64,000 nucleotides of DNA from Candidatus Latescibacterota bacterium. GTDB lineage: Bacteria; Latescibacterota; UBA2968; GCA-2709665. Every line of letters begins with the position of its first letter. The stretch's first letter is position 1. The stretch is from the NCBI GenBank assembly GCA_965203805.1, contig OZ241917.1, forward strand, positions 800,001 through 864,000. Reading direction: 5' to 3'. Below are positions 47,138-63,900 of the stretch, piece by piece. Both the position numbers and the translations under genes were made by a program. The notes beneath the pieces were generated by a model, which searched no databases, had not been told where the DNA came from, and saw nothing but the letters and a program-made list of their open reading frames with translations.

Positions 47138-47193
47138 GCCAGCCCGAAGGCGCGGCGTTGGAGGCTTTTATGGTCATCACCTACCGCAAGAAT

Positions 47194-47988: not shown

Positions 47989-50900
47989 TCAAGCCCATGG
48001 ACCGATGCCTTCGACGATTTTGCGATACAGGAAATTTCGATCTAACTCCTTCTCGCGTTCCTTGCAGGCTCGTTTCAGTTCATCCCTGTTTAGACGAACA
48101 TGTGCCATCTTCTGTTTATAAACATCGTCCTTCTCCGAGACGGCATCGATCTTTTTTTGAATCCAGGTCCAACTTCGGCGATCCGTTGCACGTAGAAACA
48201 AGACCCAGGCAGCGTACGCGGTTGACGGATCGGCAGCGTCGAGATAGGCGTTCCACCAATGGCGGGCACAAGCCTCAATCCACCTCGAGCGAGCCGACAT
48301 ACAGGTAACGCGGGCATTGGTTGTCTCGAGTTCGCCTTCGGGCCAAGCCTCAGCAATAGGTAGTGAGTTGTTCACGCGGAAACCCTCCAGGACCATGGCA
48401 CGCGCACGCCTCCACGCATAGGGTGACACCCGGTCTTTTTCGATAACCTGGTTGAGCCATTCCAACTTATCGTTGAAAACGGCAGCAATCGCGAGGTCGA
48501 AAAGCGCACGGTCGTCAGTTTGGTCAAACTTCAGTTCCGCGACCTCAACCCTTAGTTCCAGTACCTCTGGAGATTCAGGCACCCGAAAAGCCATATGCAG
48601 AAGGTCATCGACGCCGGCAGCGCCTACGTAACGCGTTCTCAGGGTTTCACTCAGGACACGCCACAACCGTACGCCCCGACCGGGATCGAGAATCAGAAGA
48701 GCCTCACAGAGAGCCAGGTATGCTCCCTCGGCCCGATGCACGCGGTTTTCAAACTCCGCTGTTGGTTCTGAGTAACCATCCAGCCAACGGTCGACATAAT
48801 CTGGTGCAAATTCAATAACGGGCTTGAAGTCCAAATAATCAAAGATTGCTTGAAAGAGTGTAACTCCGTTCCGTCGCGCTTCGTCTATTCGAGTGGCAGC
48901 AGTATCGATTGCACGTCGATGGGCCTGTAAATTCGCGTCCGGATCGAATGCGAGTTGCATTGCCTCCACTTCGTTCTCGCTCCGGCGGGGTGACACTGAA
49001 TATGAAAATGGAAGGAAATCGACCCGCGTCAGATCGACTGATATGTCGGATCCCAAGTCCAAATCGATTAGAGCATTGTCGGTCAAAGCGTTACCAAAAA
49101 TCGCCGCCGCCACTTTTATCTCTGCCGGATCTGCTCCCCGCCTGCGTACAGCCTCGAGCAAACGCCAAGGTGCGACTCTCGGCGCCAACTCTTTGAAGGA
49201 TACGGAAGACGACGCCTCGATCAGAGAATCTGTACCGTAATGGTTGACATAAATGTGTTTGTTGAAACACCACGACCAACCACCATCCAAGAGTTCGCGG
49301 CCAAAACGATTCGTGTCTGCCTGGTTCAAGATGATAAACGCAAGCTTCGTATAATTATCGTCCTCATGCACTGCAAACTTCCGAATCCACGACCACGAGT
49401 ATTCGTCGAGTAAGACAGGTTGGATCGCCAACAGTTTGAGTAAATCACGCCGCTGTTTCCCTAAGGCCGAGTCATACTTTCTGATGAGTGCGGTCGCTTC
49501 CTCGGATGTGAGCGGACGCAAGACATTAGAAAAATCCAGCATAATGTCCGGGAGATTGGCTTGGATCAAAGTTTCGACCTGTTCCCTGCCAGTTAGATTC
49601 CGTATCTCTATCGTCAGGAGCCGGTTGGCGGCAATCAGTTCATTTGCATCGTCAATATCCCGTCCTTTATGGCGAAGGGTATTTGCTGCTTGGGCTTCAG
49701 CTTCTCCTGAAAGGAGAAAATGAGACTTCGCCGAGACCGCACTCCAGTGACGGGAATCGAGCGGGCATGTTTTAAGGAATTTCAGTTTGCGCCGGTCAAG
49801 TTCCGCGAGCAGGTCTGGTGCACATCGAGCGAGAGCCGGCACAAGTTCATCAAAGTTTAGATCATCTTTGGTCCGACTTCGGGATCGGTTCAGTTTCTCT
49901 ACGTTAATTGTCCTCGCCAAGTCGCGAAGTTCGGTAACGAAGTTGCACGACGGACGAAAGTTCGGATCAAGCCACAAATCCCGGATTCTCTCTACACGTG
50001 ATTGTACTGCAAGATCACAGTCCTTAAGCACATCGTGAGCGTGTCGCCTCTCCAGCGGCAAAAAGCTTCGACCAGGATTTGCCGCATAGTCTCGCACATA
50101 GTCGTAGCTACGACCGGTGCTTGGATTCAAATGTGTGGCTGCTTTGTCGTCCGATTCTAAGCCCGTTAACCATAGCAGAAGCGCAGCGACACGCTTGGGT
50201 AGATCCAGTTGGATGCCGGGTTCCGGAATGCGACGACGCATATTGTCTGATAAGTCACGCAACCCTATAGCAGTTTCCTTGGGATCGACTTCATTTAACA
50301 GGCAGAGCCATCTTAGTGCTTCCCAGCATCCACTATTATCTCCGGCGGCAAGGGCAGTGACCGCGGCTTCAAGTGTACCCGTCGCCTTAGACAATGGAAA
50401 GCCCTCAAGAATCAAAGGAACCGTTGATTTAATCTGACCTGGGTGCCTATCGACAAGGTTGAGTTTGACGCCGACAACTGAAATGGTACCGGCAGAGTGA
50501 GTTCCGATCAGTTTCGAGAGATGATCTTCCCTCCACTTTCTTTGTTCATCACTCCGTTTGCGCCGGGTATCAATGTCAAGGTAAACGGTCCCCATCCATC
50601 GTCTTGTACGTTCGACAATTACTTTAAGGGCGGCATCGTCGGTCCGCGGAATTACACGCAGTGCTTTCACGGCCCAATGACGGGCCGACTCCTGAATCTC
50701 TGAGTCCGAATATTCAACAACGTCAAGAAGGGCTCCTGGAAGGCTAGACGCAAGTGCGACGATTTCCTGCCGATGCTTATCGGTTACGTTCTGAGCTTGT
50801 AGCCAAGCTGTAAGTAGTACTCCGGCTTTTGGCAACGCTCCATCGCCAATCTCAACCTGTATTGACACTGCCGCACGAAGAATTTCCGCCGTCTGATCGA

Positions 50901-52632
50901 AGCCCGTGATTGGATCGAGCCATTGCTTAAGTGCGACATCAAGGGATTCGTAGGATTTAGAAGTAGGTTGATCAAGATGATTTAGCAGCGCAAGACCGAG
51001 TGCGTGCGCAATGACCGCTGGAGTAAGTTCAAGGTCACCCATGGCGTTACGAATTGCGAATTTGCCGTCGATTATCTCGCTCAAACGTGCATCGACCGCG
51101 CCTGGAGTTAGGTCAGGGCGACTTACTGTTTCTACCAGCGTACGCAAAGAATAGGTCTGGCTGCCCTCTCGATGTTGATTTGCGATATGCTTCAGCCAAT
51201 CGATCCACTCGTACTCACTAAAAGACCTACCGGCCCGTACGCCAAGGGTGTCACGACCGTATTCCCATAGCAATCGATGCAGGGTTATTTGTCCGGCCTC
51301 GACCAACTGGTCACTAAATTCCACAACAAGATCAAAAAGGCGAGGTGTTCGTGTCAGTTCAAGCACATCCTGATGCATGTCGTCGCGAGTTAAACCCTCG
51401 TATGCGAGCATCTGGTCAAGTTCGCCGCCAGGAGTCATATCGTAGCTCCCCACGGCTATCGGTGAGGAAGAGTCGATCAAGCCCTTAAGCATGGACAGTT
51501 TGTTTCTGTAGTGGTGCTCTCGCGTAGTCACGATCACGCGCGCGCGTCGGGAGAATGACACGCCCTGGAGGACCTTCAGCAGGTTTAACCACGAAACGGA
51601 AGGCTCCTGATTAATTCCATCGAAAAAAACAGTAAGAACGGGACCTTCGTCCAGTGGGCGCTTGAGAAGGCGGGCGAGCCGCCGTTCCCAGTGTCTCGAA
51701 TCTCGAACACCTGTCAACTCATAAAGTCGTCTGGCAAGTAGGCGAATCACGTTGGTTTCGGATACATCAGATACCATTGACACCGCCACTGACGACGGCA
51801 CGACCAATACTATAGGCTGGTCGCCGATGCGGTCTATTAGCCAGTGAAGCGTCGCCCAAGTCTTGCCAACACCTTCGCGTCCAAGGACGACCGCGGGAGC
51901 GTCATCGCTTGCGGATGCACGCCACCAACTGTCTAGGCCATCATGCACTGCCTTGCGCTTTACCTTTTTACTTTTTGAACCTCCTGCGGCGTTCTGTCCA
52001 AGAGCTGCATTCGATTCCTTAGGACAATTCCAGATCTTGGAGAGTTTGTTGTGGGAATCTTTTCGCAATGAATCGAACCCCAGACACCAGGATTCCAGAT
52101 CGCGTCTCAAACTCTCGATCACATTGCCTGATTCCTGCCGCACGGCGCGAGCAGCATCTCTTGCGGCAGTGGTTACGTACTCGCCCACCAATTCAGGAGA
52201 CGACGCACACAATGCAGCAATTGTCGGAATTCCTACTTCAGTCCAATCGATGATCAAAACGGGAACGCCATTTTTTCCGCCATGTTGATCGAGTGATTGA
52301 CGGATCTGTTCGTTTACAGTCCGAGTAGTGCACAAGACCCAAGCTTCCAAGGCCTCATCGCGTTCCAGCGCCTCGTCGATCTCGCCACGCAATTCACGTG
52401 GGGTCAAGCGCGTCGTTTCGCTGTATCTCTTGCATTCAAGGCGAAACCGCCTGCCCCGCTGTCCAGCAGGCCCGGCATCAGCCCCGTGTTGAAAGCCCGA
52501 ACTGGCGACTGCAATAGGCACATCGAGAAGGCGACTGATCAAAGCCGCTACAAGCTTCTCAAACCTGGACGAATCCTGTTCGTTCTGAAGCTCGTGCTTA
52601 AGGTGTCTCAAGGCTGCTGAAACCGCATACAT
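47989..52632 (-). CDS. Avs-like antiviral STAND protein: Mrr-like PD-(D/E)XK nuclease + P-loop NTPase + long helical C-terminus
   Basis: FEKLVAAL…QHGADAG…LECKRY nuclease motif; Walker A GREGVGKT; Walker B VFFDGINQ; VIVTTR; TPRL; 1547 aa. Confidence 0.75.
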   Translation of the reverse strand: MYAVSAALRHLKHELQNEQDSSRFEKLVAALISRLLDVPIAVASSGFQHGADAGPAGQRGRRFRLECKRYSETTRLTPRELRGEIDEALERDEALEAWVLCTTRTVNEQIRQSLDQHGGKNGVPVLIIDWTEVGIPTIAALCASSPELVGEYVTTAARDAARAVRQESGNVIESLRRDLESWCLGFDSLRKDSHNKLSKIWNCPKESNAALGQNAAGGSKSKKVKRKAVHDGLDSWWRASASDDAPAVVLGREGVGKTWATLHWLIDRIGDQPIVLVVPSSVAVSMVSDVSETNVIRLLARRLYELTGVRDSRHWERRLARLLKRPLDEGPVLTVFFDGINQEPSVSWLNLLKVLQGVSFSRRARVIVTTREHHYRNKLSMLKGLIDSSSPIAVGSYDMTPGGELDQMLAYEGLTRDDMHQDVLELTRTPRLFDLVVEFSDQLVEAGQITLHRLLWEYGRDTLGVRAGRSFSEYEWIDWLKHIANQHREGSQTYSLRTLVETVSRPDLTPGAVDARLSEIIDGKFAIRNAMGDLELTPAVIAHALGLALLNHLDQPTSKSYESLDVALKQWLDPITGFDQTAEILRAAVSIQVEIGDGALPKAGVLLTAWLQAQNVTDKHRQEIVALASSLPGALLDVVEYSDSEIQESARHWAVKALRVIPRTDDAALKVIVERTRRWMGTVYLDIDTRRKRSDEQRKWREDHLSKLIGTHSAGTISVVGVKLNLVDRHPGQIKSTVPLILEGFPLSKATGTLEAAVTALAAGDNSGCWEALRWLCLLNEVDPKETAIGLRDLSDNMRRRIPEPGIQLDLPKRVAALLLWLTGLESDDKAATHLNPSTGRSYDYVRDYAANPGRSFLPLERRHAHDVLKDCDLAVQSRVERIRDLWLDPNFRPSCNFVTELRDLARTINVEKLNRSRSRTKDDLNFDELVPALARCAPDLLAELDRRKLKFLKTCPLDSRHWSAVSAKSHFLLSGEAEAQAANTLRHKGRDIDDANELIAANRLLTIEIRNLTGREQVETLIQANLPDIMLDFSNVLRPLTSEEATALIRKYDSALGKQRRDLLKLLAIQPVLLDEYSWSWIRKFAVHEDDNYTKLAFIILNQADTNRFGRELLDGGWSWCFNKHIYVNHYGTDSLIEASSSVSFKELAPRVAPWRLLEAVRRRGADPAEIKVAAAIFGNALTDNALIDLDLGSDISVDLTRVDFLPFSYSVSPRRSENEVEAMQLAFDPDANLQAHRRAIDTAATRIDEARRNGVTLFQAIFDYLDFKPVIEFAPDYVDRWLDGYSEPTAEFENRVHRAEGAYLALCEALLILDPGRGVRLWRVLSETLRTRYVGAAGVDDLLHMAFRVPESPEVLELRVEVAELKFDQTDDRALFDLAIAAVFNDKLEWLNQVIEKDRVSPYAWRRARAMVLEGFRVNNSLPIAEAWPEGELETTNARVTCMSARSRWIEACARHWWNAYLDAADPSTAYAAWVLFLRATDRRSWTWIQKKIDAVSEKDDVYKQKMAHVRLNRDELKRACKEREKELDRNFLYRKIVEGIGPWA

Positions 52633-52930: not shown

Positions 52931-55900
52931 TCAGTCAGTATGCCTAAGTATCCCGCGGCTAAAGAGGTTTTCCTTGGCGCGTTCGGCGTTTTTTTGGACG
53001 GTATCGTCGCAATGTTCGAGACCGGCTTTCAGGATGGCTTTTGCATCGTCGGTATGAATGTAGAATCTACCACTCTTAGGCGCGGCATTGGTAAGCTTGG
53101 CGAAGCATTTGACCACCAAAGGAGTATGCATCGGGAGCAGTGCAGGCATTGACCGCGTCACCTCAAGAGGGAGCCATGTCCTTGGGTGTTCCGCGCGACC
53201 CTCCTCAAGTGAACCTGTTGCATCAAGGATTCCGTCAACGTCCAAAACCTTCGACAAAGCATTTAAACGCCATTCTGGATCAAGACACTCGGCTTTCAGC
53301 CACGCGGGGATTTCTCGGAGTTCCAAGGGTTCACGGGCATCTAATCGCCACTCGAAAAAGCCAATGATTCTGTCCGTCAGGCCTTTTTCAAGGTGCTTGC
53401 CAGTATTCTGTAACGAATGCCCGACATAGTTAAACAATGTCGCCCAATGCTTTCGTTCACCGTCGGTCTTCAGGTAATAGCGTTCCAGCAGGCTTGGGTC
53501 TCCCGTAAGCGGATATACGTCCCACAAATAGTAGGTAAACAGATGTTGACCTAGCTTTCGGGTCAACTCCCGTACGATTTCCTTTTGCTCTCCCTGGGAT
53601 CCCAGATGATCCAGTGCGAATTCGAAATCGCCGCGGAGTTCATCGAATATTTGCCTGTTAGGGCGTCCACGGCGGAGATAATTGCCAAATGCCTCTCGCC
53701 ACGCCGGAAGGTCATTCCGGGGAAACAACTGGGACTTTTGGGATACCGCCAATTCTTCATACAGATGGAACAAAGGCCCAAATCGCATTCCCAAGACTGC
53801 GTACTCAGGAAGCGTAAGTGGATAACTGACTTCCGTGTTGAATCGCTTTTCTAGAATCTCCCTCAATTCAGGGATCGAGGCTTTGTCGTCCTGCCTCCGC
53901 ATCCAGTATCCAAATTTCACCAGATTATCTAATGCTCTCCCACGGGTCGTATTGATCGCTTCGGTTAGCTGGTCGTCCCGGTTCAAGAGTACCGGCCTGT
54001 CTTGATCCAGGCGCCAATCGTATTGCGTGCAGAGCATTCCCAGGAGGTCGACCAGGTTTTCGCGAGCGGATAGCGGCACCTCCACATCCTCTTCGATACA
54101 GGTTTCGACAAAGTCACAGACCGCTCTCCGCGACGTATGCCAACGAGGCTGTTCGCGTGACCCATCTCCGAGGCGTCCGATCCCATCAAGTTCTTCGTTT
54201 TGCGGATCTGGATGGGTAAGCGCCCACTTGCAAAACACGAACCACTGTTCGAGCTTATCAAAGTTCCCGGCCTTTACATGATCCTTCATTGCATCAACAA
54301 TCGTGCGTACGTAAATGGGCCGGAGTATGTTATCTCGATTCTTAATCCAAAAACTCAGTCTGGCAGCGTTCGGAATAACGGAATCCTCAAAAACCTTTCG
54401 AAATGCTGCGGCCAACGCTTCAATACTAATCTCTGTGACGCCATTACTAGTGTCCCAATGTTCGTCTTCCCACTCGTTTATATAGGCAAGCAGGTTTTTA
54501 TCAGAAAGACTCACGAGATCTTCAGTTGATCTTGGGCTGCGGCGCTTAGTCCGTCCTCCTTTGGATCCTTTATGGGGCGCGTAGCTCGCGTCCGTGATTT
54601 TTTCTGCAGTCTTATCGGCTTCAAGTTGCCGGAAATAGCGCGCGTACTTCCCGAAGAGTACTAGTGCAAACGGCCTGAGTTGGCGACGATGGAAATTCCT
54701 TCTTTCATTTTCGAATGCAGAACTTGAGAACTGCTCACCCATCCATTCCCTGAATTCTTCCTCTGGAGGTCCACTGAGGATAGTATCGAAGATGTGAATT
54801 CTTTCGTCTCTTGTCAGTAATTCCTCTCCGAGATGCTCGAAGGCAATTCTTAACATCCGTTGAAACTCAAAGTGGTATTCCCATCGCCCGTAGTCGCCAT
54901 GTCGGAGGATCAACTCGCGAGTCCGCTCCATAGTTTGCTCGCTTGGGTATTTGGCGCAAAGATGCTGTCGGAGGCGGGTGAAGAGATACCAGCGCTGGTT
55001 GCGTAACGCTTCGTCAAGAGTTCCAACCGACTCTCTCGCTTGTTCATATACCATTTCACAGGCGTGGGTAAGCGCATGGACGAGCGACTTTCCATGCTCC
55101 GGATCACTGTTATCGGATTTGTCGAGTTGCGGACACCAAGTTCTAGTATAGTCATATGTTTCACTGCTCTCACTGTCGAGCTGATGTAACTCGTGGTGAA
55201 GCATGTTTTTTGTCGCGTCAACAAGCATACGCGCCACCTTGTAAGGTTCCTTTTCCGCCAACGGACGAATGCCTTCGGCCAAAATCTGATCGTAAATCTC
55301 GCTAAACCGAGGCATCGGCCTGAGAGTGGTCATCATTAGAGAAAACTGGTTTCTGGTTGAGTCATCATGATCGTCGTTGAGTTTTCGTCTTCTTCTTCGC
55401 TTTTCTTCGGCGTTTGGATCAGGGACAAATTGAACGAGGATTCTTGCAAGTTCTAATGCGGCTATCGTTTGGCCCTCGGACGTCCAATGTGCTAACAGTT
55501 CGGGAAACTGAAACGGAAGGTATGGGGTATCTAGTTTGGCAAACTCAAGCATCTTTGACTTGAGTTTCCCGGATCGCTCGCCGTCTAGTTTTAATGCGAT
55601 GTCTAAGATATTCGCATAGACGTTTGGATTGTCAACGGTCGGAATCTGCAACACCAGTTCAAGAACATCCTCCTGAGCCTGCGTGCATACCCTTTCGAGA
55701 TATCGAAGTTCCGGCCAGAAAGGAAATCGGACGTATCCATCTAACAGATTCTCTGTTTTGGGAGGATTCTTGAAGAAACCCTTCTCCTTCAAGAAAGGAA
55801 TCCAAACCGGATCCGCTACGTTTGTAAAGAAGAAGACGTAATTGGCGCCTCTTCGGGAAATCAGCTGATAAAGAGTTTCTGCGTCCGTATCGGAGTGGTC

Positions 55901-57028
55901 GGATTTATCCATGATAGACTGGATCTCCTGCTGGTCGTGTGCCGTGATTGGCGCAAGAAGATCATAGACTAACTGTTCGAGCGTCGCAACATACCTCCTG
56001 TACTTACCCTCATCTGTCGCTCTCAATGACCGATGATGCGTGAAATCTTCCAGCTGACTCCACAACTTGTGAAACTCATCTCGTTTCCGATTCTGGATTT
56101 CAATTCCCATCTGATTTGCCATTGGATCGATGTTTCTTATCGCTATCTGTATCTGTTCTCGTCGCGTCGGCTGCTGGTTCAATTCCAAATATCGATCGAT
56201 TTCATTGAGTGTTTCATCAAGCTTAACGTCGATTCTCTTGTCTTTCCACCCGTCTTTGTATCTATTCTTATCTTTGATGAATCGCTCATGTATCTTCTGC
56301 CTCAAAGTCTTGGGATTCTTGTAGCTCTGTACATCCCGTTCCCGCACGACACGAGGGAGTTTTTCCATAAGTTCTCGCAACGAATTCGCCGCCTGGGAGA
56401 TGCGATCGGGATTATAGGTGTTCTCGATGGCATAGAGCGCCCCCAGGTACCAATCACCCAAAGGGTATTTCTCCGTTTCAACCCGTCTGAGCGCATCCAA
56501 CACGTGCTGCTGAATGCCAGTGAGTGCCACGGTGCCGTGCTGTCCGAGAGCTACATTTACATCGCTTGCATTGGCGCCCACATCAGACCGAAGAATCGCC
56601 TGATCATCCAACCGCTTCCCTGCGTCGAGTATTTCGACACCCGCAATTTGCCCCTTTTCATCGTAGTCCAACGCGATTCCTTCTGCAACTAGGTCCGTCG
56701 TCACCGATGTTTGCTTTAGGCGGATGTATAAAGCATCCACCTCGCGATCGTAAGTGATCTTGGCCATCTTTTCCTCAAAAAAAAATGTATATACTGTTAC
56801 GACAACGACTTCATTCGGCTTGTCCACCAAAATCGGTCGGACTTTCTTAATCCTGTAAAACTTGCCATTCCAGTCGTCTTGGTACGGGTATTCCTTGAAA
56901 CATTCAAATCTATTCTGACGCACAGGTTTCCAGGCAGATGAGCGTATCGCCTCAACGACTTCCTGCTCCGTGGCGCCACGGCGGCGGATTTGTTCGCGTG
57001 CATGATTGGAGATACGAATTGATTTCAA
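52931..57028 (-). CDS. In-frame fusion: DUF4258-like toxin + DUF2283 + HEPN-like domain + large helical domain (probable internal start at 56767)
   Basis: SNHAREQIRRRG…VVVTVY (DUF4258); YDREVDALYI…GVEILDA (DUF2283); NPDRISQAANSLRELM…FTH. The rest is colinear with 57343-60342. Confidence 0.7.
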   Translation of the reverse strand: MKSIRISNHAREQIRRRGATEQEVVEAIRSSAWKPVRQNRFECFKEYPYQDDWNGKFYRIKKVRPILVDKPNEVVVVTVYTFFFEEKMAKITYDREVDALYIRLKQTSVTTDLVAEGIALDYDEKGQIAGVEILDAGKRLDDQAILRSDVGANASDVNVALGQHGTVALTGIQQHVLDALRRVETEKYPLGDWYLGALYAIENTYNPDRISQAANSLRELMEKLPRVVRERDVQSYKNPKTLRQKIHERFIKDKNRYKDGWKDKRIDVKLDETLNEIDRYLELNQQPTRREQIQIAIRNIDPMANQMGIEIQNRKRDEFHKLWSQLEDFTHHRSLRATDEGKYRRYVATLEQLVYDLLAPITAHDQQEIQSIMDKSDHSDTDAETLYQLISRRGANYVFFFTNVADPVWIPFLKEKGFFKNPPKTENLLDGYVRFPFWPELRYLERVCTQAQEDVLELVLQIPTVDNPNVYANILDIALKLDGERSGKLKSKMLEFAKLDTPYLPFQFPELLAHWTSEGQTIAALELARILVQFVPDPNAEEKRRRRRKLNDDHDDSTRNQFSLMMTTLRPMPRFSEIYDQILAEGIRPLAEKEPYKVARMLVDATKNMLHHELHQLDSESSETYDYTRTWCPQLDKSDNSDPEHGKSLVHALTHACEMVYEQARESVGTLDEALRNQRWYLFTRLRQHLCAKYPSEQTMERTRELILRHGDYGRWEYHFEFQRMLRIAFEHLGEELLTRDERIHIFDTILSGPPEEEFREWMGEQFSSSAFENERRNFHRRQLRPFALVLFGKYARYFRQLEADKTAEKITDASYAPHKGSKGGRTKRRSPRSTEDLVSLSDKNLLAYINEWEDEHWDTSNGVTEISIEALAAAFRKVFEDSVIPNAARLSFWIKNRDNILRPIYVRTIVDAMKDHVKAGNFDKLEQWFVFCKWALTHPDPQNEELDGIGRLGDGSREQPRWHTSRRAVCDFVETCIEEDVEVPLSARENLVDLLGMLCTQYDWRLDQDRPVLLNRDDQLTEAINTTRGRALDNLVKFGYWMRRQDDKASIPELREILEKRFNTEVSYPLTLPEYAVLGMRFGPLFHLYEELAVSQKSQLFPRNDLPAWREAFGNYLRRGRPNRQIFDELRGDFEFALDHLGSQGEQKEIVRELTRKLGQHLFTYYLWDVYPLTGDPSLLERYYLKTDGERKHWATLFNYVGHSLQNTGKHLEKGLTDRIIGFFEWRLDAREPLELREIPAWLKAECLDPEWRLNALSKVLDVDGILDATGSLEEGRAEHPRTWLPLEVTRSMPALLPMHTPLVVKCFAKLTNAAPKSGRFYIHTDDAKAILKAGLEHCDDTVQKNAERAKENLFSRGILRHTD

Positions 57029-57342
57029 GTTTTCTCTACGGCTTCATTGGCACGATCATCGATGCACAACCCACTGCGAGTGTTGATTACGGATCTGACG
57101 ACGATCAGTATGAGTCTTTTGGTTCCATAAACAACCGAGGTTACTGTGCGGTCCTCTGTATCAGATCTAGCCCAGCGCAATTCTAGTCCAAGCCGACCGT
57201 TTTCAACAACATTAGCACAAATCAAGACAAATTTCTTGCCACTGTTCCAAGTGCGTTAGCGCCGTTTACCGTAACTCACTTCAGGCTGTTTTCTGTGAAT
57301 GTTTCGTTCTGGAACGCTAACTCGCATGCTCACAGAGACCGC

Positions 57343-60342
57343 TCAGTCCAAGATGCTGAAATATCCCCTACGCAACAGGTTCTCACGGGCTTGTCGAGCG
57401 TTTTCACGTACGCTTTCGTCGTCATGATCAAGACCGGCAGTCAGGATGGACCTTGCATCGTTGGTTGGAATGTAGATCACACTGCTCCCAGGTGCAACTT
57501 CTGTAAGTTTGGCGAAACACCTGACCACGTGTGGTGTGTAATCTGGAAGCATAGTTCGCAACGCTTGGGTTGTGTCATGTGGAAGCCAAATGGCAGCAGA
57601 ATCTCCGCTATTGTACATCGGAGTATCAGTCTCGTGCAGAATATCATCTACATGCAGAACCCTTAGATACGCACTCAATCGCCGTTCTGGATGCAGGCAG
57701 TCGGCTTCAAGCCAATTCGAAAACTCCCTCAGTTCCAATGGTTCACCCGTCTGCAGACGCCACTCAAGATAGTCATGTATCCTACACGCAATCATCGTAT
57801 CAAGCGGTTTCTTGGTGTTTTTTAACCTTCGGCCTACATAGCCGAACAGTGCAGCCCAATGCTGTCGGTTACTAACGGTCGCCTTGAAGAATCCGTCCAG
57901 CAGACTGCCGGCGCCTTCCAGCGGTAAAACTCCCCATATGTAGTATTTGAAAAGGTGCTGCCCAAGAATTTCCTTCAACCCATCTTCGAGTGGCTCTCGG
58001 AGTTCCAGGCGTCGCATATTGTCCAGGGCAAATTGATACTCATCGCGAACCCGGTCAAATATCTGTTTTTCAGGATGGCTGTATCGAAGGAAACCTGCAA
58101 ACGCTTGAAGCCACGCCGGAAAGTCGTGTTGAGGAAATACCAAAGACTTGCTAGCAGCCGCCCATCGGCTATCGAGATCGAAAATTGACTGGTAGAGCCT
58201 CCCCAGGATTGCGTATTCCGTAGGCTTCAGTGGACAATCAGATTCAGAATCGAACCTTTTATTCAGAATCGCTTTCATTTCAGTGATTTCCGCATTGTCA
58301 TCGCGTCTGCGCAACCAGAATCCCATTCTGACGAGGTTTTCCAGCGCACGACCTCTAGTCGTATCAATTGTTTCAATCAGCCGGTCATCGCCGTTCGGCG
58401 GTGTCTGTACTTTCTGTTCAAGTAACCAGTCATATTGCGTACAGAGCATGCCCAGGAGGCGCCCCAATTGTCCTCGATTGGAAATCGACACTTCCGAATC
58501 CCGCTCAAAACACGTTTCAATGAAGTCACAGACTGCACGACGCGCCGTATGCCACCTCGGCGTCTCACTAGATCTATCCCAAAGTTGCGCGGTTCCGTAT
58601 GGATGCTCGTCTTGAGGATCTGGATGCGAAATCACCCATTCGCAAAATGGTAACCACTTATCCAGCTTATCGTGATTCTTTCCCTTCACGATGTCCTGCA
58701 TTGCATTAATCATCGCCCGTACGTATATAGGCCGGTGTATGTTATGTCGACTCCCGATCCAAAAATTCAGTCTGGTATCGCTTGGGATGATGCAGTCCTT
58801 GAAGACACTCTGAAATGCTCCAGCCAGGGCTTCCATGGTAATCTCGATGAGCCAGTCGTCCTTATCCCGGTGTTCGTTGTTCCATCTGTTGATGTAGTCG
58901 AGCAGTTTGTGGTCGGTTAAGTTTGCAAGTTCTTGGGGTGATTTCGGACTGCGAGACCTGACAGTTCCCCCTTCGGATTCACTGACACGCGAGTAATTCT
59001 CATCAGTGATCTCATCTGCCGATCTGCTTGATTCAAGTTCTTCGAAATAGTCAGAGTATCTGCCAAATAGTAAGGGTTCGAACGGCCGGAGTTGCCGGTG
59101 ATGGAAATCTCTCTTCTGTTGTGCAAATTCCGATTCGGTAAAGTGCTCGCCCATCCATTCAAGGTAGAATTCCCTTGGAGGACCCTTAAGAATCGCATCG
59201 AAAATCTCGGTGCACTCCTCTTCTGTGAGCAAATCGGATCCGAAATGCTTACACGCCAACCGGACCATTTGTTGAAATTCGTAGCCGTATTGCAATTGGC
59301 TATAGTCGTCGTGCGCTAATATGAGCTCTCTAATAAAAGGACGGGTGTGTTGGCTTAGGTGTAACCCATACAGATGTTGTCTTATACGCTTGAATACATC
59401 CCACCTTTGACCCCTTAAGGCGATGTCAAGGTCTCCGATAAGATCGCTCGATCGTTTCCATACACTTTCGCAGGCGTAGGTCAGCGTATGCACGAGGGAC
59501 TCTCGCAAATCTGGACATTCCCGTCTCGGCTTGGTTAGGCGTGGGCACCATAATTCCAAATAATCCGTGCTCTTTCCACTGGCAAGATCGTCATTGTGCT
59601 TGCCGAGTCGTATCATGTTGTCTGTCGCATTGACTAAGATTAGAGCAACCTTGTACGGTTCCTTTTTCACGAGCGGACGAACTCCCTCGTTAAGGACGTC
59701 CAGGTAAATGGAGTTGAATGGCGGAACAGGCTCAAGTTTGGTCGTCATCATCAAGGTCAAATATTCCTCGTCCCTTGCAGACAGATGCTTGCTGATCTCG
59801 ATATATTTCCTCTTCTTTTCTTGAGCATTCGGGTCCGGCGCAAACTGAACTAGGACGTCTGCAAGTTCCAAGGCAGCATTTGTCTGTTCTTTTGACGTCC
59901 ACTGTGCAAGTATCCTTGCTAACTTGGATGGAACCAACCGGCGCTCAAGCTTTGCATACTCGAGGACTTTCGGTTTGAGTCTTGTAGAATTCGCACCGCT
60001 CAGTTGTAAGACCAGGTCAATCATCTCTTCGTAGACCCTAGGGTTATCTGTCGGCGGGATTTCCAACACAATCTGGATTACGGCGTCAACTATATCGCTT
60101 GGTGCATCTTTACAGATCTCCTTGAGGAATTCAAGCTCAGGCCAGAAAGGACATTGAAGATATCCGCCAGGCAGATGGCTTATTTCCGGTGGGCACGCAA
60201 AACACCCACGATCAGCTAACGGCTGAATCCACAGTGGATTTTTCAAACGTGAAAAGAAGTACTGTCGGTCAGTTTCCTTCTCAAACGACGACAATACCCT
60301 CTCTACTATTTCAGGTGTTGGTTTCTTCCAAGATCGCATCAA
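57343..60342 (-). CDS. Large alpha-helical protein of unknown function (paralog of the C-terminal part of 52931-57028)
   Basis: 999-aa ORF sharing blocks with the paralog: FWPEL, PDPNA, RQLRPF, PRWHT.RRAVCDF and LGMLCTQYDW. Confidence 0.8.
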   Translation of the reverse strand: MMRSWKKPTPEIVERVLSSFEKETDRQYFFSRLKNPLWIQPLADRGCFACPPEISHLPGGYLQCPFWPELEFLKEICKDAPSDIVDAVIQIVLEIPPTDNPRVYEEMIDLVLQLSGANSTRLKPKVLEYAKLERRLVPSKLARILAQWTSKEQTNAALELADVLVQFAPDPNAQEKKRKYIEISKHLSARDEEYLTLMMTTKLEPVPPFNSIYLDVLNEGVRPLVKKEPYKVALILVNATDNMIRLGKHNDDLASGKSTDYLELWCPRLTKPRRECPDLRESLVHTLTYACESVWKRSSDLIGDLDIALRGQRWDVFKRIRQHLYGLHLSQHTRPFIRELILAHDDYSQLQYGYEFQQMVRLACKHFGSDLLTEEECTEIFDAILKGPPREFYLEWMGEHFTESEFAQQKRDFHHRQLRPFEPLLFGRYSDYFEELESSRSADEITDENYSRVSESEGGTVRSRSPKSPQELANLTDHKLLDYINRWNNEHRDKDDWLIEITMEALAGAFQSVFKDCIIPSDTRLNFWIGSRHNIHRPIYVRAMINAMQDIVKGKNHDKLDKWLPFCEWVISHPDPQDEHPYGTAQLWDRSSETPRWHTARRAVCDFIETCFERDSEVSISNRGQLGRLLGMLCTQYDWLLEQKVQTPPNGDDRLIETIDTTRGRALENLVRMGFWLRRRDDNAEITEMKAILNKRFDSESDCPLKPTEYAILGRLYQSIFDLDSRWAAASKSLVFPQHDFPAWLQAFAGFLRYSHPEKQIFDRVRDEYQFALDNMRRLELREPLEDGLKEILGQHLFKYYIWGVLPLEGAGSLLDGFFKATVSNRQHWAALFGYVGRRLKNTKKPLDTMIACRIHDYLEWRLQTGEPLELREFSNWLEADCLHPERRLSAYLRVLHVDDILHETDTPMYNSGDSAAIWLPHDTTQALRTMLPDYTPHVVRCFAKLTEVAPGSSVIYIPTNDARSILTAGLDHDDESVRENARQARENLLRRGYFSILD

Positions 60343-60946
60343 GAGTACCTATTCGGCTATATTCGCTTGTTGCGGCGACAAATAAGAAATCCTCGAGAAT
60401 TTTAAAATTCTCCGCCACATTGATATGCACGTTTTCGGAAAAGGCTGGTTCCCGCAGGTGAGTGTTTGCCCTGAAAAACACCTTTGTTTCTTTCCATTTC
60501 TTCATACTGGGAATCCTGTCCTTATCAGAATATCCAAGAAATGTATTGAAAAAGAAATCATCCGCCTGTTGATTTCTGAGACTACCTTCCTTGTGCTTAT
60601 TTATCAGATTCGCAATCATCTCGCATACATTATACGGAATCAGATGTCCCTCTCCCCTCTGTTCCGCCGTGAATAATCCTTGCCCTCCCCATTCATTTCT
60701 CCACTTCTGTTGTAGTTTTCCTACAAGATGACGGTAATCAACTTGAGATGACCGAATACCGGCGACGGTTCGAGCGAGAAAATTCATTAGGTCCCTTGCC
60801 ACATGCGATACGAACGTAATGTATCCCGGTGACCTATCTTTTAGCGAAAGCGCGGCTCCTCTGTATGCGTCGGCGTACACGGGCAGCTCGAGTCTATTAT
60901 CGAGCCAGTCGAATATCTGTTGCTGTGTTTCCGAAAGCACTGTCAT
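60311..60946 (-). CDS. Small HEPN-like helical protein (paralog of the middle domain of 52931-57028)
   Basis: YRGAALSLK…SHVARDLMN…FFRANTH aligns with YLGALYAIE…ANSLRELME…LEDFTH. Overlaps the start of the 999-aa gene by 32 nt. Confidence 0.65.
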   Translation of the reverse strand: MTVLSETQQQIFDWLDNRLELPVYADAYRGAALSLKDRSPGYITFVSHVARDLMNFLARTVAGIRSSQVDYRHLVGKLQQKWRNEWGGQGLFTAEQRGEGHLIPYNVCEMIANLINKHKEGSLRNQQADDFFFNTFLGYSDKDRIPSMKKWKETKVFFRANTHLREPAFSENVHINVAENFKILEDFLFVAATSEYSRIGTLDAILEETNT

Positions 60947-60952: not shown

Positions 60953-63900
60953 TTACAATCCCATCCGGTATTTGATGTCATAGTTGATGATGAAATCCAG
61001 TTCATCCGCAGTAAAATCGTAGTGGTTCGCCAATGTTTGGTCGATATCGTCAATTGTCGGTTTGCAGGGAGCTACGTTGTATTGATCGACTTCCGCTTTC
61101 CCGTAGACGATGCGTTGTGAGTTCATCTTTAATCCTGCCATCAACTCTTCAACTATACACGATAGCTGTTTTGATAGCTGGCGAAGGCCATCTAATTTTA
61201 TCGGAAATAGTGCAATGTCGGAGGGATAAACATGCCGCGCGTCGGTTAGACTCTTCCAAAGGAAGTAAAAAAGGTTGCTATTTAATATCGAGCAATACAG
61301 CACTGCCAATTCGGAAGATGGCAACCTGAGCTCCGAAATTGTCGTATGGGTCTTGTTGGGTTCCTTTAGGGACCTATAATAAGGGGCAAATGTAAACGTC
61401 TTTATCCAATAACCACCGGCATTGTGGTAATGAACTACGTGAGCGCCACGAAATTGCCGATACGACGCCCAGGGACTTTGATGCGATAACGCCTTGAGTA
61501 ATGCAGAATGCCCAATCGGGTCGTTAACCTTTGGGATACTATAAGCTTGCCTCGATTCCCCCAATTCAAGATATCGCATGTTATAAAAAAGAACCGGGCG
61601 TTCTTCGGAGTACCATGTAATGTAATCGGTCGTATAACCTTTCGCGTTCGTTCCTTTTTTAGATATGCATATTGTATTCCTCTGCATTACGCCGGGAAAT
61701 AAAGCGGCGGGCCTGAGGGCGAAATTGCTTAACCAGATTACGGAGTTTTGGTCGAACAACAATCCTTGGAGCGCTGCCATACGCTGGGCTGCGGTGAGCG
61801 ATATTGGATTGATAAAGCCAAACCTGCCACTCTCGCAAAGGAGCAGATTCGATCGCTCGATCGTAAACGCGTATAGGTTTCCACAATGCTCCGTCGAAAA
61901 GTCGTTTATTGTATATATCGTGCGAACCTTTTTGTATTCGACATACGGTGGATTCCCGATCACCACGTCAAACCCACCCCTTTGCACGATACCATAGAAT
62001 TCCACGAACCAGTGGAATGGCTGGTGGCTTGCACACCATTGCTCGTAGGCAGTTGCGTCGTTTTCTTGGACACCGTATTCACCAGCCAGATATCGGTCCA
62101 ATTGGTCCCGAAGGTCATCGAGCCGTCCACGCAGATTAACCTTTGCTTGAGCGAATACTTGCGCATCCATCTCTTGTTCGGTCTGCATTTTCTGGAACAT
62201 ACGAAAAGCGCGATCAGCGACGTCGGCGCGTTCTTCGATGTCGGGAAGCGATTGTTCCTTGAATAAGTCGCCCCTTACAGCCCGTCTCACATCGTCAAGA
62301 GAGGTAAAGCCAACCAATGTGTTGCCAGCGCGTATGTTGAAGTCGATGTCGGGCAAAGGCTCGATCTGTTCGACGCTTTCCAGTTGCGCAACGAGCTTCA
62401 GGAAGAGGCGCAGTTTGCAGATTTCGACAGCCTCTTCCATTATGTCCACACCATAGAGATTGTTGATAATGATGGACTTGAGAATGAAATATCGCTCGCT
62501 GGGATGAGACTCGACCTGTTTGAGTATCTGCCGGAAGTCGTTCATCTTTTCGGGGCGATGTTTGCGCTTCGATCGCTCTAAATCATCCAGAAGACCGCGC
62601 ATCGCCTCCAGGCACGCGGTGTAGATGGGTTCCAGGATGTTGAGTGCCGCAAACAGGAAGGCGCCGGATCCGCAGGTGGGATCCAGAATCGACACCCCGG
62701 AAATTGCCTTCCAAAAGGCGCGGACCAGTTCAGGTCCCTCGCTCCCCGAAATGACGTCTTGCGCGAATTTCTCAATATCCAGGTTGTACGTAATCAGGTC
62801 GTTGATTTCTATGACCTTACCCGCGGTAAGTTTGGCGTATACTTCCTCGTAGTGGCGCCGACGTGCTACATGCTCGCGCCAGGTTTCGGTTGGCAGTGCA
62901 TAGTCGCCGGTCGCGGGTTCATTCCAGTTGTCGCGTTTTGCGACGTCTTCCAGTCCTGCTGCGATTTCCGAAGGCAGGTCGCGCTTCCGCACAAGGTCTT
63001 CCTTCTTGTGGATATCGTTCGTGATCCCGTGACGGACCGCTTCGTAGAAGTACCGATCCGGCTCCTCCTGCAACAGAGACCACACCCCTCCGCCGGGCCT
63101 GAACGCAATTGGACACGCCTTCTTTGCCTGGTCGAACAGAAACGGAATGATCGTATTGCGGCTGATGTATCCGGTGATGTCCTCTTTGGTGTAGTAGGCC
63201 CCCATCTGCTTCTGGTTGATGTACTTCTCGAAGATGTAGCCGAGCACGTCGGGGTTGATCTCATTGTCATTGCGTAACGGCCGGTCGTCCAGGTGCCACT
63301 GATAGGCGTCGAAAAAATCGAAGATTCGCTCGAACGCTTCATCGGGGATCCGAATTTCCGGATTGTCGTGCTCCAGATCGTGGACGTCGAAAAGGCCGCC
63401 GTTGAGGAATGGCACCTTGCCAAGCAGGCTCACAATCTCCGGGGTGCGGTCGGCCTCCGGTCGCCCCAGCCCGTCATGAAACAGCCTAAGAAGGAATACC
63501 CGATAGAACCTGTTGAAACGCCCGTTTCCATATTGCTGCCGAACCTTTTCGAGACGGTCGCGGAGGTATTCGGTGTTGTTGTCGAGGAATCCGCGTTTCT
63601 GGATGAAGTAGATGAACATCATGCGGTTCAGCATCAGCGAGGCGTACCATTCTTTCTCGGCCAGGTCTCCGATCCCCTCGATGAACCCCAGAAAGGCCTC
63701 GTGTTCCTTCTTGAAGCGGTCGTAGAACCGTTTTGTGACCTTTTCGACGTCAAAGGCTGCCCGAACCCGACCAGATACGTCAACGATAGTCAGGTCGTCT
63801 TCTTCGTCGAGTGTGAAGGCGATGTTTTCGAGCTTCTGAATGAGCCGTTCGCCGGTATCCCCTCGGCGGAACGATTCCGAACGTTGCCGGTCCGGACGGC

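What the first reader, a model, noticed from the sequence alone, without database searches (positions are those of the whole stretch)
52931..60946. Candidate new defence system: HEPN-like effector + large helical sensor, present as split and fused paralogs in tandem
Seen: module 1 is two overlapping genes (211 aa + 999 aa). Module 2 has both parts in one ORF. Shared blocks run end to end (W…L…G.F..PP, FWPEL, PDPNA, EPYKVA, RQLRPF, PRWHT.RRAVCDF, LGMLCTQYDW, C-terminal ENL..RG). No Walker motif is visible in either. Both sit between an RM gene and an Avs-like gene. Inference: the natural fusion shows the two parts work together. The small domain (S/A-R-D/E-L-M…F..TH) resembles HEPN-type nucleases, and the large one resembles the helical sensor regions of Dsr/Avs-type proteins. 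This suggests an NTPase-free sensor-effector system duplicated to broaden specificity.
Basis: partly seen in the sequence, partly recalled or inferred. Interest (0 to 1): 0.85.

Follow-up and report, generated by a model that had tools for sequence, protein, structure and literature searches.

The report
Dsr1-type phage sensors with swapped nucleases
Two neighbouring gene modules behind a restriction enzyme gene each pair a large helical-repeat protein, related to the sensor part of the known anti-phage protein Dsr1, with a small nuclease-like domain in place of Dsr1's sirtuin, so they are a new variant of a recently described class of defence proteins and not a wholly new system.

Summary
A 211-aa gene overlaps a 998/999-aa gene, and next to them lies a long ORF whose last 966 residues are 49% identical to the large protein. 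The large protein is an all-alpha solenoid. It is homologous over about 730 columns to the region of Dsr1 that follows the SIR2 domain, and it has no P-loop.

The two small parts share about 15% identity but are homologous (hhalign E 5e-9). Both lie near Pfam pP_pnuc_1. The fold resembles HEPN only weakly, and no Rx4-6H motif is conserved.

In the wider family, three N-terminal modules (two pP_pnuc_1-like and PIN_12) occur fused or as a separate upstream gene, and they swap often on the sensor tree. The 1365-aa ORF is a DUF4258 ORF joined through a T9 run to a conserved 1278-aa gene (DUF2283 + effector + sensor).

In 44 of 68 related loci the module lies within 10 kb of restriction-modification genes of type I, IIG or III. 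In 29 of these 68 loci it lies directly behind them.

A January 2026 preprint already describes NTPase-free Dsr1/Avs7-sensor proteins with nuclease and HEPN-like effectors that sense phage capsid protein. Verdict: a new variant of a known kind, of moderate interest.

The parts
60953..64000 (-). Type IIG restriction endonuclease-methyltransferase gene. Its 5' end lies beyond the window. It ends 6 nt before the 211-aa gene.
   Evidence: PADLOC REase_MTase_IIG, E 0, profile positions 78-1095 of 1100. Pfam Eco57I and MmeI_Mtase.
60311..60946 (-). Module 1 effector gene (211 aa, 'type A'). All-alpha, distantly pP_pnuc_1-like, predicted nuclease.
   Evidence: 209 representatives at E<=1e-3. AF2 pLDDT 84.3, pTM 0.70. 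Conserved H48, R51, D52, N55, H101, H118, R124, H163, R165. Atlas features: 21 of 30 hits are PF18165 clusters. Pfam gives no hit above cut-off.
57343..60339 (-). Module 1 sensor gene (998 aa from ATG 60339; the ORF as listed runs from TTG 60342). HEAT-like alpha-solenoid homologous to the post-SIR2 region of Dsr1.
   Evidence: AF2 pLDDT 84.1, all helices. PADLOC Dsr1 E 1.1e-16. Dsr1 profile positions 305-504 and 732-1018 matched. hhalign against SIR2-bearing Dsr1-like proteins: E 8.2e-8, 728 columns.
60311..60339 (-). 29-nt overlap of the effector gene's end with the sensor gene's start (translational coupling inferred).
   Evidence: The same 29-nt overlap occurs in most split loci (upstream ORF ends at 10029, core starts at 10001).
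56780..57028 (-). DUF4258 ORF (83 codons). In this genome it is read in frame into the next gene.
   Evidence: Pfam DUF4258, 25.8 bits against cut-off 25. It is a separate gene ending in TGA 7 nt before the ATG in L056.
56777..56785 (-). T9 homopolymer (A9 on the + strand) that joins the DUF4258 frame to the 1278-aa gene. One more T would create a TGA stop in front of the GGAAAAG-ATG start region.
   Evidence: Contigs of runs X1, X3 and X4 agree with the window. The X5 contig has one extra base here plus a substitution, which restores the TGA.
52931..56767 (-). Module 2 gene (1278 aa from ATG 56767): DUF2283 + type B1 effector + sensor in one chain.
   Evidence: Relatives of 1268-1282 aa carry PF10049, with or without PF18165. 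GAGGA lies 6 nt upstream of the ATG.
56621..56761 (-). DUF2283 domain (ORF residues 90-136).
   Evidence: Pfam PF10049, E 4.2e-16, 59.3 bits.
55904..56527 (-). Type B1 effector domain (ORF residues 168-375). pP_pnuc_1-like and homologous to the 211-aa protein.
   Evidence: Pfam pP_pnuc_1, 22.3 bits, below the cut-off of 26.3. hhalign of the A profile against the B1 profile: Prob 95.9, E 5.3e-9, 197 columns.
52931..55834 (-). Sensor region of module 2 (ORF residues 399-1365).
   Evidence: 49% identical to P0002. PADLOC Dsr1 E 9.6e-16.

Best explanation
The region holds two co-resident members of one widespread family of NTPase-free 'sensor + effector' anti-phage modules. Each module has a sensor of about 970 residues. 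The sensor is an alpha-solenoid homologous to the region of Dsr1 that follows its SIR2 domain.

In place of SIR2, each module carries a small all-alpha domain distantly related to Pfam pP_pnuc_1, a family Pfam names as a predicted nuclease. In module 1 this domain is a separate, translationally coupled gene. In module 2 it is fused to the sensor.

The proposed mechanism is inferred by homology with EcDsr1 and SeAvs7. The solenoid would bind a phage protein made during infection, most likely a structural protein such as the major capsid protein. Binding would release or assemble the effector, which would then cleave nucleic acid and abort the infection.

The modules are transcribed behind a type IIG restriction-modification gene, inside a low-GC defence island of about 25 kb. 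They would act as a second line of defence for phages that escape restriction.

Module 2 also has an N-terminal DUF2283 domain with a DUF4258 ORF in front of it. This is a toxin-antitoxin-like pair of unknown role here.

Shown here: homology, architecture, effector swapping and linkage to restriction-modification genes. Inferred: the defence function, nuclease activity, the trigger and abortive infection.
For: **Sensor homology to Dsr1**
- PADLOC Dsr1 (PDLC04166) matches P0002 with E 1.1e-16 and P0001 with E 9.6e-16.
- It matches the relative P0181 colinearly, residues 249-945 to profile positions 306-1015.
- P0002 also matches profile positions 305-504.
- A profile of 40 cores against a profile of 8 SIR2-bearing Dsr1-like proteins gives Prob 94.5, E 8.2e-8 over 728 columns. 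P0002 residues 12-878 align to residues 293-1086 of the genome's own SIR2_2+DUF4020 protein.
- Intermediates L090 and L091 match both P0002 (BLASTP 1.5e-29 and 6.9e-36) and the Dsr1 model (9.9e-50 and 5.7e-34).

**Fold and NTPase**
- The sensor model is an all-alpha solenoid with pLDDT 84. Its best structural matches are HEAT/importin-like proteins.
- No Walker A motif is present.

**Effector modularity**
- Of 126 database proteins with the core, 68 are standalone, 30 are fused to B1, 11 to A, 9 to PIN_12, and 8 are partial.
- PIN_12 is confirmed in P0008 (E 1.3e-21).
- Each of the three effector types occurs both fused and split.
- The architecture label needs at least 30 changes on a tree of 119 cores, where the minimum possible is 3.
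- A and B1 are homologous (E 5.3e-9).
- The canonical Dsr1 also occurs split, as a 318-aa SIR2 protein plus a 945-aa sensor in G023.

**Physical link between the two module 1 proteins**
- Natural fusions exist in relatives, and the genes overlap by 29 nt.
- Complex prediction gives weak support: ipSAE 0.48 against a best control of 0.00. That mark was reached by 58 of 80 solved complexes and 2 of 110 mismatched pairs, but scores of 0.60 or less were reached by only 7 of the 80. Partner pLDDT is at least 66 and contacts agree in at least 79%.

**Defence context**
- GC falls from 0.61 to 0.46-0.57 between about 46 kb and 71.5 kb.
- The island holds a PsyrA-like protein, an MNT, a HicB-like protein, a STAND-like NTPase, a type IIG restriction-modification enzyme, an HKD-SNF2 helicase and a PIN protein.
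- In 44 of 68 related loci a restriction-modification gene cluster lies within 10 kb. In 29 of the 68 the nearest upstream gene is co-oriented, less than 600 bp away, and belongs to a restriction-modification or accessory cluster.

**Function of homologous sensors**
- PMC12803255 (section 5 and search passages read) reports that EcDsr1 and SeAvs7 are triggered by a phage major capsid protein.
- It also reports that NTPase-less proteins with this sensor carry NADase, nuclease, kinase and HEPN-like effectors.
Against: - No experiment bears on this family.
- The sensor is only about 16-21% identical to Dsr1-like proteins. Its trigger may therefore differ.
- A profile against the single own-genome Dsr1-like sequence gave only E 0.052 over 111 columns.
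- Pfam DUF4020 and NCBIfam give no hit for P0001 or P0002.
- The effector has no hit above any curated cut-off. pP_pnuc_1 scores 22.3 bits against a cut-off of 26.3, only 2 of 42 type A members reach E 0.0016, and P0003 itself has none.
- The effector has no relative among solved structures by sequence or by Foldseek.
- No canonical nuclease motif is conserved. An R.{4,6}H shares a column in at most 10 of 42, 33 of 98 and 10 of 42 rows.
- The first narrow profile comparison of A against B1 gave only E 0.049.
- The restriction-modification linkage counts are not corrected for relatedness of the genomes and have no random-locus control.
Confidence: 0.65

Rival explanations
1. Restriction-modification guard. 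The solenoid does not sense a capsid protein. Instead it monitors the neighbouring restriction-modification enzyme, or a phage anti-restriction protein, and fires its nuclease when restriction is blocked. This would work like the anticodon nuclease PrrC inside a type I restriction-modification operon (PrrC is recalled, not checked here).
For: The module lies directly behind, and co-oriented with, restriction-modification or accessory genes in 29 of 68 loci. Restriction-modification clusters lie within 10 kb in 44 of 68 loci. In the window the gap to the type IIG gene is 6 nt. The genome's own SIR2-type Dsr1-like gene also abuts a type ISP enzyme.
Against: The neighbours are of three unrelated restriction-modification types (I in 21 loci, IIG in 10, III in 13). 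This argues against one specific protein partner. 24 of 68 loci show no restriction-modification cluster. The homologous EcDsr1 and SeAvs7 sensors are reported to be triggered by capsid protein (PMC12803255, section 5).
Confidence: 0.13
2. The small domain is not a nuclease. It is an adaptor, or has another activity, and the toxic output in module 2 comes from the DUF4258 protein held by the fused DUF2283 domain.
For: No curated nuclease family is matched above its cut-off, and no Rx4-6H motif is conserved. All 3 genome loci whose fused gene starts with DUF2283 have a DUF4258 ORF directly upstream.
Against: Most family members lack DUF2283 and DUF4258 (3 of 17 B1 loci have them). The same position is taken by a bona fide PIN_12 nuclease domain in 9 of 126 proteins. 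Histidines and arginines are invariant or nearly so in type A.
Confidence: 0.15
3. The family is not an immune system. It is a housekeeping HEAT-repeat scaffold with an accessory subunit that merely sits in variable islands.
For: The best structural matches are generic transport and scaffold solenoids. No function has been tested.
Against: Distribution is patchy: the Dsr1-model scan hits 35 of 168 genomes of the phylum, and there are two copies in this genome, both in the island. The island is low in GC. The sensor is homologous to a proven defence protein. Effector swapping is rampant. The family is linked to restriction-modification genes.
Confidence: 0.05

Closest known systems
Dsr1 (defence-associated sirtuin 1; PADLOC PDLC04166; Pfam SIR2_2 + DUF4020)
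   Same: The sensor is homologous over about 730-800 positions that follow the effector. Neither has an NTPase. Both have the order N-terminal effector then C-terminal solenoid. Both occur fused and split (G023).
   Different: There is no SIR2 domain. The effector is pP_pnuc_1-like or PIN_12. Identity to Dsr1-like sensors is only about 16-21%. There is no DUF4020 or NCBIfam hit. Most members are two-gene modules.
NTPase-less Avs7/Dsr1-sensor proteins with non-SIR2 effectors, including a Streptomyces HEPN-like RNase protein (PMC12803255, bioRxiv, January 2026)
   Same: The concept is the same: a shared solenoid/TPR sensor without a STAND NTPase, variable N-terminal effectors including nucleases, and effector exchange on the sensor tree.
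   Different: I could not check whether this clade is in their set of 9,097 proteins, because the supplements are closed. Features described here and not seen in the parts of the paper I read: the split two-gene form with a 29-nt overlap, the pP_pnuc_1-like effectors without Rx4-6H, the DUF2283/DUF4258 add-on, and the operonic linkage to restriction-modification genes.
Pfam PF18165 pP_pnuc_1 (predicted pPIWI-associating nuclease)
   Same: It is the nearest named family for both small domains. There are sub-threshold HMM hits and precomputed hits on several fused relatives. 21 of 30 language-model neighbours of P0003 are PF18165 clusters.
   Different: The hits are below the curated cut-off for the window's proteins. 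No Argonaute partner was noticed. I found no paper holding the family name, so its activity is untested as far as these searches show.
HEPN ribonuclease domains
   Same: The fold is a helical bundle. At least 15 HEPN chains are in the top 50 of 48,161 (for example 8oz7 Z 7.3, rmsd 3.5, 115 aligned; 7ae2 Z 7.2, rmsd 3.1, 107 aligned).
   Different: Z is under the tool's noise bar for helical bundles. No Rx4-6H motif is conserved. The conserved Arg and His are about 110 residues apart.
DSR2 (SIR2 + alpha-solenoid that senses the phage tail tube)
   Same: The logic is the same: an effector plus a large helical sensor, with no NTPase (abstracts of PMC10981675 and PMC11850899, seen in the listing).
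   Different: No PADLOC Dsr2 hit, and DSR2 is not among the listed structural matches.
DUF4258/DUF2283 gene pairs (regarded as toxin-antitoxin-like; this is recalled, not checked)
   Same: A DUF4258 ORF lies directly upstream of a DUF2283 domain.
   Different: Here DUF2283 is the N-terminal domain of a 1278-aa sensor-effector protein. In this genome the two frames are joined by a T9 run.

Membership tests
Dsr1 | N-terminal SIR2 NADase domain | tested here: not met
   There is no SIR2_2 hit in P0001, P0002 or P0003 at E<=0.1. The same scan finds SIR2_2 (E 4.4e-20) in the genome's own Dsr1-like protein.
Dsr1 | C-terminal sensor region homologous to that of Dsr1 | tested here: met
   PADLOC PDLC04166, E 1e-16. 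Colinear match to profile positions 306-1015 in relative P0181. hhalign E 8.2e-8 over 728 columns.
Dsr1 | Match to curated whole-family models (Pfam DUF4020, NCBIfam) | tested here: not met
   No DUF4020 hit and no NCBIfam hit other than a chance-level one.
Dsr1 | Protects against phage by NAD+ depletion | not testable with these tools
   This needs an experiment. It is unlikely here because there is no SIR2 domain.
NTPase-less Avs7/Dsr1-sensor defence proteins (PMC12803255) | Sensor homologous to Avs7/Dsr1 sensors | tested here: met
   Shown through Dsr1 only. No Avs7 model was at hand.
NTPase-less Avs7/Dsr1-sensor defence proteins (PMC12803255) | No STAND NTPase domain | tested here: met
   No Walker A motif. 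No P-loop family in Pfam.
NTPase-less Avs7/Dsr1-sensor defence proteins (PMC12803255) | Variable N-terminal effector domain | tested here: met
   Three effector families are found, and at least 30 architecture changes are needed on the core tree.
NTPase-less Avs7/Dsr1-sensor defence proteins (PMC12803255) | Bilobed, sharply bent TPR sensor architecture | tested here: inconclusive
   The AF2 model is an all-alpha solenoid with pTM 0.53. No Dsr1 or Avs7 structure was available for comparison. The Avs4 sensor (8dgf) gives Z 9.2, rmsd 10.1, 644 aligned, which is within helical-repeat noise.
NTPase-less Avs7/Dsr1-sensor defence proteins (PMC12803255) | Triggered by phage major capsid protein | not testable with these tools
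   This needs co-expression or binding experiments.
HEPN | Conserved Rx4-6H catalytic motif | tested here: not met
   The commonest column with an R.{4,6}H is shared by 10 of 42 (A2), 33 of 98 (broad A) and 10 of 42 (B1) rows.
HEPN | HEPN four-helix fold | tested here: inconclusive
   VIA-align gives Z 5.1-7.3 to at least 15 HEPN chains in the top 50. This is under the bar of about 13 for helical bundles. Foldseek finds nothing at E<=0.001.
pP_pnuc_1 (PF18165) | Score at or above Pfam's gathering cut-off (26.3 bits) | tested here: not met
   P0001 scores 22.3 bits and P0003 has no hit. 2 of 42 type A members hit, with best E 0.0016. Several fused relatives carry a precomputed PF18165 hit.
pP_pnuc_1 (PF18165) | Gene neighbourhood with a prokaryotic PIWI/Argonaute | not tested
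   No search for PIWI was run. None of the annotated recurrent neighbours was a PIWI.
DUF4258/DUF2283 pair | Both Pfam domains present and adjacent | tested here: met
   DUF2283 scores 59.3 bits. DUF4258 scores 25.8 bits against a cut-off of 25.
DUF4258/DUF2283 pair | Two separate small genes | tested here: not met
   DUF2283 is the N-terminus of a 1278-aa protein. In this genome DUF4258 has no stop before it. A stop is present in L056 and in the X5 contig.

The most novel reading that the evidence does not exclude
These Dsr1-type sensors may be wired into restriction-modification operons as a dedicated second layer, and are not free-standing capsid sensors. They would be co-transcribed with type I, IIG or III enzymes and fire when a phage escapes or disables restriction. 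In the DUF2283-bearing branch, the sensor would also hold a DUF4258 toxin through a fused antitoxin-like domain. One phage-sensing event would then release two different effectors. This would be a toxin-antitoxin pair captured by an immune receptor.
Probability: 0.12. Interest if true: 0.75.

Novelty: new variant of a known kind. Interest (0 to 1): 0.45.

Why it matters
**What it adds**
- It extends the recently recognised Dsr1/Avs7 sensor class to a large clade found mostly in uncultured bacteria. There are 575 proteins at E<=1e-3 among the 8,000 scored candidates. Relatives occur in Latescibacterota, Poribacteria, Gemmatimonadota, Nitrospirota, Chloroflexota, Nitrosomonas and a cyanobacterium.
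- It shows that the sensor works with separable effector subunits. This gives a natural two-protein system for studying how a solenoid sensor switches on its effector.
- It gives the uncharacterised pP_pnuc_1-like domain a testable role as an immune effector.
- It documents a strong operonic link between such sensors and three types of restriction-modification systems. This bears on how first-line and abortive defences are co-regulated.

**What it does not do**
- It does not open a categorically new kind of system.

Tried and rejected
- **PDB sequence searches.** P0002, the N-terminal part of P0001, P0003, and profiles A1 and A2 gave only chance-level rows.
- **Foldseek against the PDB.** The 211-aa model gave nothing at E<=0.001. 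The 999-aa model gave only generic HEAT/importin solenoids with TM<=0.27. VIA-align on it gave generic solenoids too (top Z 12.5).
- **BLASTP of P0003 against P0001** gave nothing.
- **Narrow hhalign of A against B1** gave E 0.049. It was superseded by the broad profiles.
- **hhalign of A1 against one Dsr1-like sequence** gave E 0.052. It was superseded by a profile of 8.
- **A word-indexed search with the distant relative P0181** returned only 8 proteins, none with SIR2.
- **No paper in the library holds 'pP_pnuc_1'**. The search for DUF4020/DUF4935/PIN_12 gave nothing on this family.
- **The passages read in PMC11162769 and PMC3702460** did not describe pP_pnuc_1.
- **No tRNA lies in 40-64 kb**.
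- **The idea that the T9 fusion is an assembly error was rejected.** A contig of a second study (X4) has the same T9. Contigs cannot show minority variants.
- **The idea that P0004 belongs to the module was rejected.** It has a homologue next to the module in only 1 of 78 loci (L056).
- **Earlier-findings look-ups by place and by sequence** gave nothing.

**Rows dropped before counts**
- In one search, pieces whose match to P0002 began after residue 40 were left out (among them L053, L054, L061, L065, L069, L070, L071).
- In one search, 10 of 78 loci with less than 3 kb of upstream flank were left out.
- In one search, cores shorter than 900 aa or truncated at the N-terminus were left out (119 rows kept).


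Full report
**1. What is in the sequence**

On the minus strand lie, in order of transcription:
- a type IIG restriction-methylase gene (60953 to beyond 64000; PADLOC REase_MTase_IIG, E 0);
- a 211-aa gene (60311..60946, P0003);
- a 999-aa ORF (57343..60342, P0002);
- after 314 nt, a 1365-aa ORF (52931..57028, P0001);
- a 1547-aa gene (47989..52632, P0004).

P0001 residues 399-1359 and P0002 residues 28-993 are 49% identical over 966 columns. None of P0001, P0002 or P0003 has a Walker A motif. The family consensus begins at the ATG at 60339. The sensor gene therefore overlaps the end of the 211-aa gene by 29 nt. The same overlap is seen in most split loci elsewhere.

**2. The long ORF is composite**

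Pfam finds DUF4258 at residues 6-80 (25.8 bits on the 83-aa piece, cut-off 25). It finds DUF2283 at residues 90-136 (59.3 bits) and a sub-threshold pP_pnuc_1 match at residues 192-223 (22.3 bits against 26.3).

Relatives of 1268-1282 aa start with DUF2283, which matches a start at ATG 56767 (1278 aa). The DNA there reads ACA-T9-GAGGAAAAG-ATG. In the closest related locus, L056, the DUF4258 gene ends in TGA 7 nt before the ATG. One more T in the window would give exactly that arrangement.

Contigs of runs X1 and X3 (one study, possibly the source) and of X4 (another study) have T9. A contig about 95% alike in X5 has one extra base and a substitution in the run, which restores the TGA. The in-frame join is therefore real in this lineage but not general. 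All 3 genome loci whose fused gene begins with DUF2283 (the window, L006 and L056) have a DUF4258 ORF directly upstream.

**3. The large protein**

It belongs to a big family. There are 575 proteins at E<=1e-3 among the 8,000 scored candidates. In one-genome-per-species contigs there are 96 relatives, of which 78 loci were kept. Only the two window copies occur in this genome.

AlphaFold2 with 40 sequences gives an all-helical solenoid (pLDDT 84.1, pTM 0.53). Structural searches return only generic HEAT/importin-type solenoids.

The informative link is to Dsr1:
- PADLOC PDLC04166 matches both window proteins (E about 1e-16, profile positions 731-1021).
- It matches the N-terminal part of P0002 (profile positions 305-504).
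- It matches a distant relative colinearly over profile positions 306-1015.
- The same genome encodes a true SIR2_2+DUF4020 protein of 1181 aa.
- A profile of 8 such proteins aligns with the core profile over 728 columns (Prob 94.5, E 8.2e-8). P0002 residues 12-878 align to residues 293-1086, which is everything after SIR2.
- Two intermediates match both sides strongly.

The sensor is therefore a distant homologue (about 16-21% identity) of the Dsr1 sensor. Pfam DUF4020 and NCBIfam do not see it.

**4. The small parts**

Among 45 standalone cores in genome loci, 42 have an ORF of about 200-350 aa directly upstream. 40 of these are P0003-like ('type A') and 2 are of the other types.

N-terminal extensions of fused forms fall into three kinds:
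- type A;
- 'type B1', as in P0001;
- PIN_12, confirmed in P0008 at E 1.3e-21.

Of 126 database proteins, 68 are standalone, 30 are fused to B1, 11 to A and 9 to PIN_12, and 8 are partial. Each type occurs both fused and split.

On a FastTree of 119 cores the architecture label needs at least 30 changes. The minimum possible is 3 and the shuffled mean is 46.1. PIN-, B1- and A-fused proteins appear as sisters on short branches.

The window's two cores lie in different starred subclades. Their nearest relatives are 79% identical (P0007, standalone) and 74% identical (P0050, B1). They are therefore two lineages brought together and not a recent duplication.

**5. Are the two small parts related, and what are they?**

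BLASTP sees nothing, and narrow profiles gave E 0.049. Broad profiles (98 type A and 42 type B1 sequences) give Prob 95.9 and E 5.3e-9 over 197 columns, aligning P0003 residues 3-208 with P0001 residues 168-375. They are homologous but only about 15% identical.

Both touch Pfam pP_pnuc_1 below its cut-off. 21 of the 30 language-model neighbours of P0003 are PF18165 clusters.

The AF2 model of P0003 (pLDDT 84.3, pTM 0.70) has no Foldseek match. VIA-align puts at least 15 HEPN chains among its top 50 (Z 5.1-7.3), but the tool's own note places such values within noise for helical bundles.

No Rx4-6H motif is conserved. The conserved polar residues of type A are H48, R51, D52, N55, H101, H118, R124, H163 and R165. 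'Nuclease' is thus an inference from three things: the family name, these residues, and the fact that a PIN nuclease occupies the same slot.

**6. Do the two module 1 proteins bind?**

Natural fusions and the conserved 29-nt overlap make binding likely beforehand. Complex prediction with P0003 and P0002 residues 1-780 gave weak support. The ipSAE scores were 0.53, 0.48 and 0.48, against 0.00 for three controls. Partner pLDDT was at least 66 and contacts agreed in at least 79% of cases. The tool reports that this mark was reached by 58 of 80 solved complexes and 2 of 110 mismatched pairs, but that scores of 0.60 or less are weak.

**7. Context**

GC drops from about 0.61 to 0.46-0.57 between about 46 kb of the window and about 7.5 kb beyond its end. 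This island of about 25 kb holds:
- a PsyrA-like ORF;
- an MNT-type nucleotidyltransferase;
- a HicB-like ORF;
- P0004, which has Walker A GREGVGKT and features near NACHT/nSTAND3 clusters;
- the two modules;
- the type IIG enzyme;
- an HKD-SNF2 helicase;
- a PIN protein.

Across the 78 related loci, recurrent neighbours were clustered and representatives were annotated:
- type I hsdR, hsdM and hsdS, often with YhcG or an AAA_15/21 ATPase;
- type III mod and res;
- type IIG with HKD-SNF2, PDDEXK_3 and MTaX1-HNH.

Of the 68 loci with at least 3 kb of upstream flank, 44 hold such a restriction-modification cluster (type I in 21, IIG in 10, III in 13). In 29 of the 68 the nearest upstream gene is co-oriented, less than 600 bp away, and belongs to one of these clusters. 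These are lower bounds. They are not corrected for relatedness and have no random control.

**8. Comparison with what is known**

A bioRxiv preprint of January 2026 (PMC12803255; I read section 5 and the passages found for 'DSR1', not the supplements) reports the following:
- The Avs7 sensor is shared with Dsr1 and with other proteins that lack the STAND NTPase.
- Those proteins carry NADase, nuclease, kinase and HEPN-like RNase effectors.
- Effector exchange is visible on the sensor tree.
- A phage major capsid protein triggers both SeAvs7 and EcDsr1.

This family is a distant branch of it. The particulars found here are:
- mostly split two-gene modules;
- pP_pnuc_1-like and PIN_12 effectors;
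- an optional DUF2283 domain with DUF4258 upstream;
- tight linkage to restriction-modification operons.

Three earlier notes of this scan, from other genomes, describe similar restriction-modification-linked solenoid-plus-effector modules. I treat them as leads that agree with this reading, not as independent evidence.

**9. Verdict**

- The finding is a new variant of a known kind.
- The mechanism (phage protein bound by the solenoid, the nuclease-like effector released or assembled, infection aborted) is inferred from homology and architecture, at confidence about 0.65.
- The main open points are the effector's chemistry, the trigger, whether the restriction-modification linkage is functional, and what DUF4258 and DUF2283 do.

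Noticed in passing
window 56777-56785 (with 56780-57028): A T9 homopolymer removes the stop of a DUF4258 ORF and puts it in frame with the 1278-aa sensor-effector gene. A related strain's contig (X5) and locus L056 keep a TGA stop 7 nt before the ATG.
   Followed up: yes
window 47989-52632 (-): A 1547-aa protein with Walker A GREGVGKT at residue 251. By eye, it has a PD-ExK-like 'ECK' motif near residue 66. Its language-model neighbours include NACHT/nSTAND3 clusters. It has no PADLOC hit. Among the 78 loci a homologue (62% identity) occurs only in L056.
   Followed up: partly
L088 6002-9547 (-) and 2524-5910 (-) (own genome, G000:C1 about 4.92 Mb): The same genome has a true Dsr1-like protein (SIR2_2 + DUF4020, 1181 aa). 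It lies directly upstream of a type ISP restriction-methylase (N6_Mtase + Type_ISP_C), which is another pairing of a sensor with a restriction-modification enzyme.
   Followed up: partly
G023:C7:36032-39746 (L089): A canonical Dsr1 split into two adjacent genes: a 318-aa SIR2 protein (profile positions 5-302) and a 945-aa sensor (profile positions 308-1220, E 6.4e-143).
   Followed up: no
L025 6302-12886: This is the only other tandem pair among the 78 loci. A B1-fused 1192-aa gene is followed at once by a 961-aa core that has no effector gene of its own.
   Followed up: no
window 45338-47670 and L080 2098-7492: The rest of the low-GC island holds a PsyrA-like ORF, an MNT nucleotidyltransferase (PDC-S09 models), a HicB-like ORF, an HKD-SNF2 helicase (PADLOC C3a139, E 3e-49) and a PIN protein.
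   Followed up: partly
L033, L037, L047, L049, L056, L068, L072, L073, L074, L077: In 10 of 78 loci the core is broken into two to four ORFs. These may be frameshifts, decay or assembly errors. In L053, L054, L069 and L071 the split point lies about 130-160 residues inside the core, with an upstream gene of 280-359 aa.
   Followed up: no
L001, L002, L004-L007, L047 (downstream of the module): A 208-238-aa DprA-like (DNA_processg_A) gene recurs just downstream of the module in loci with the type IIG/HKD-SNF2 arrangement. A PDDEXK_3 gene (128 aa) and an MTaX1+HNH gene recur upstream.
   Followed up: no
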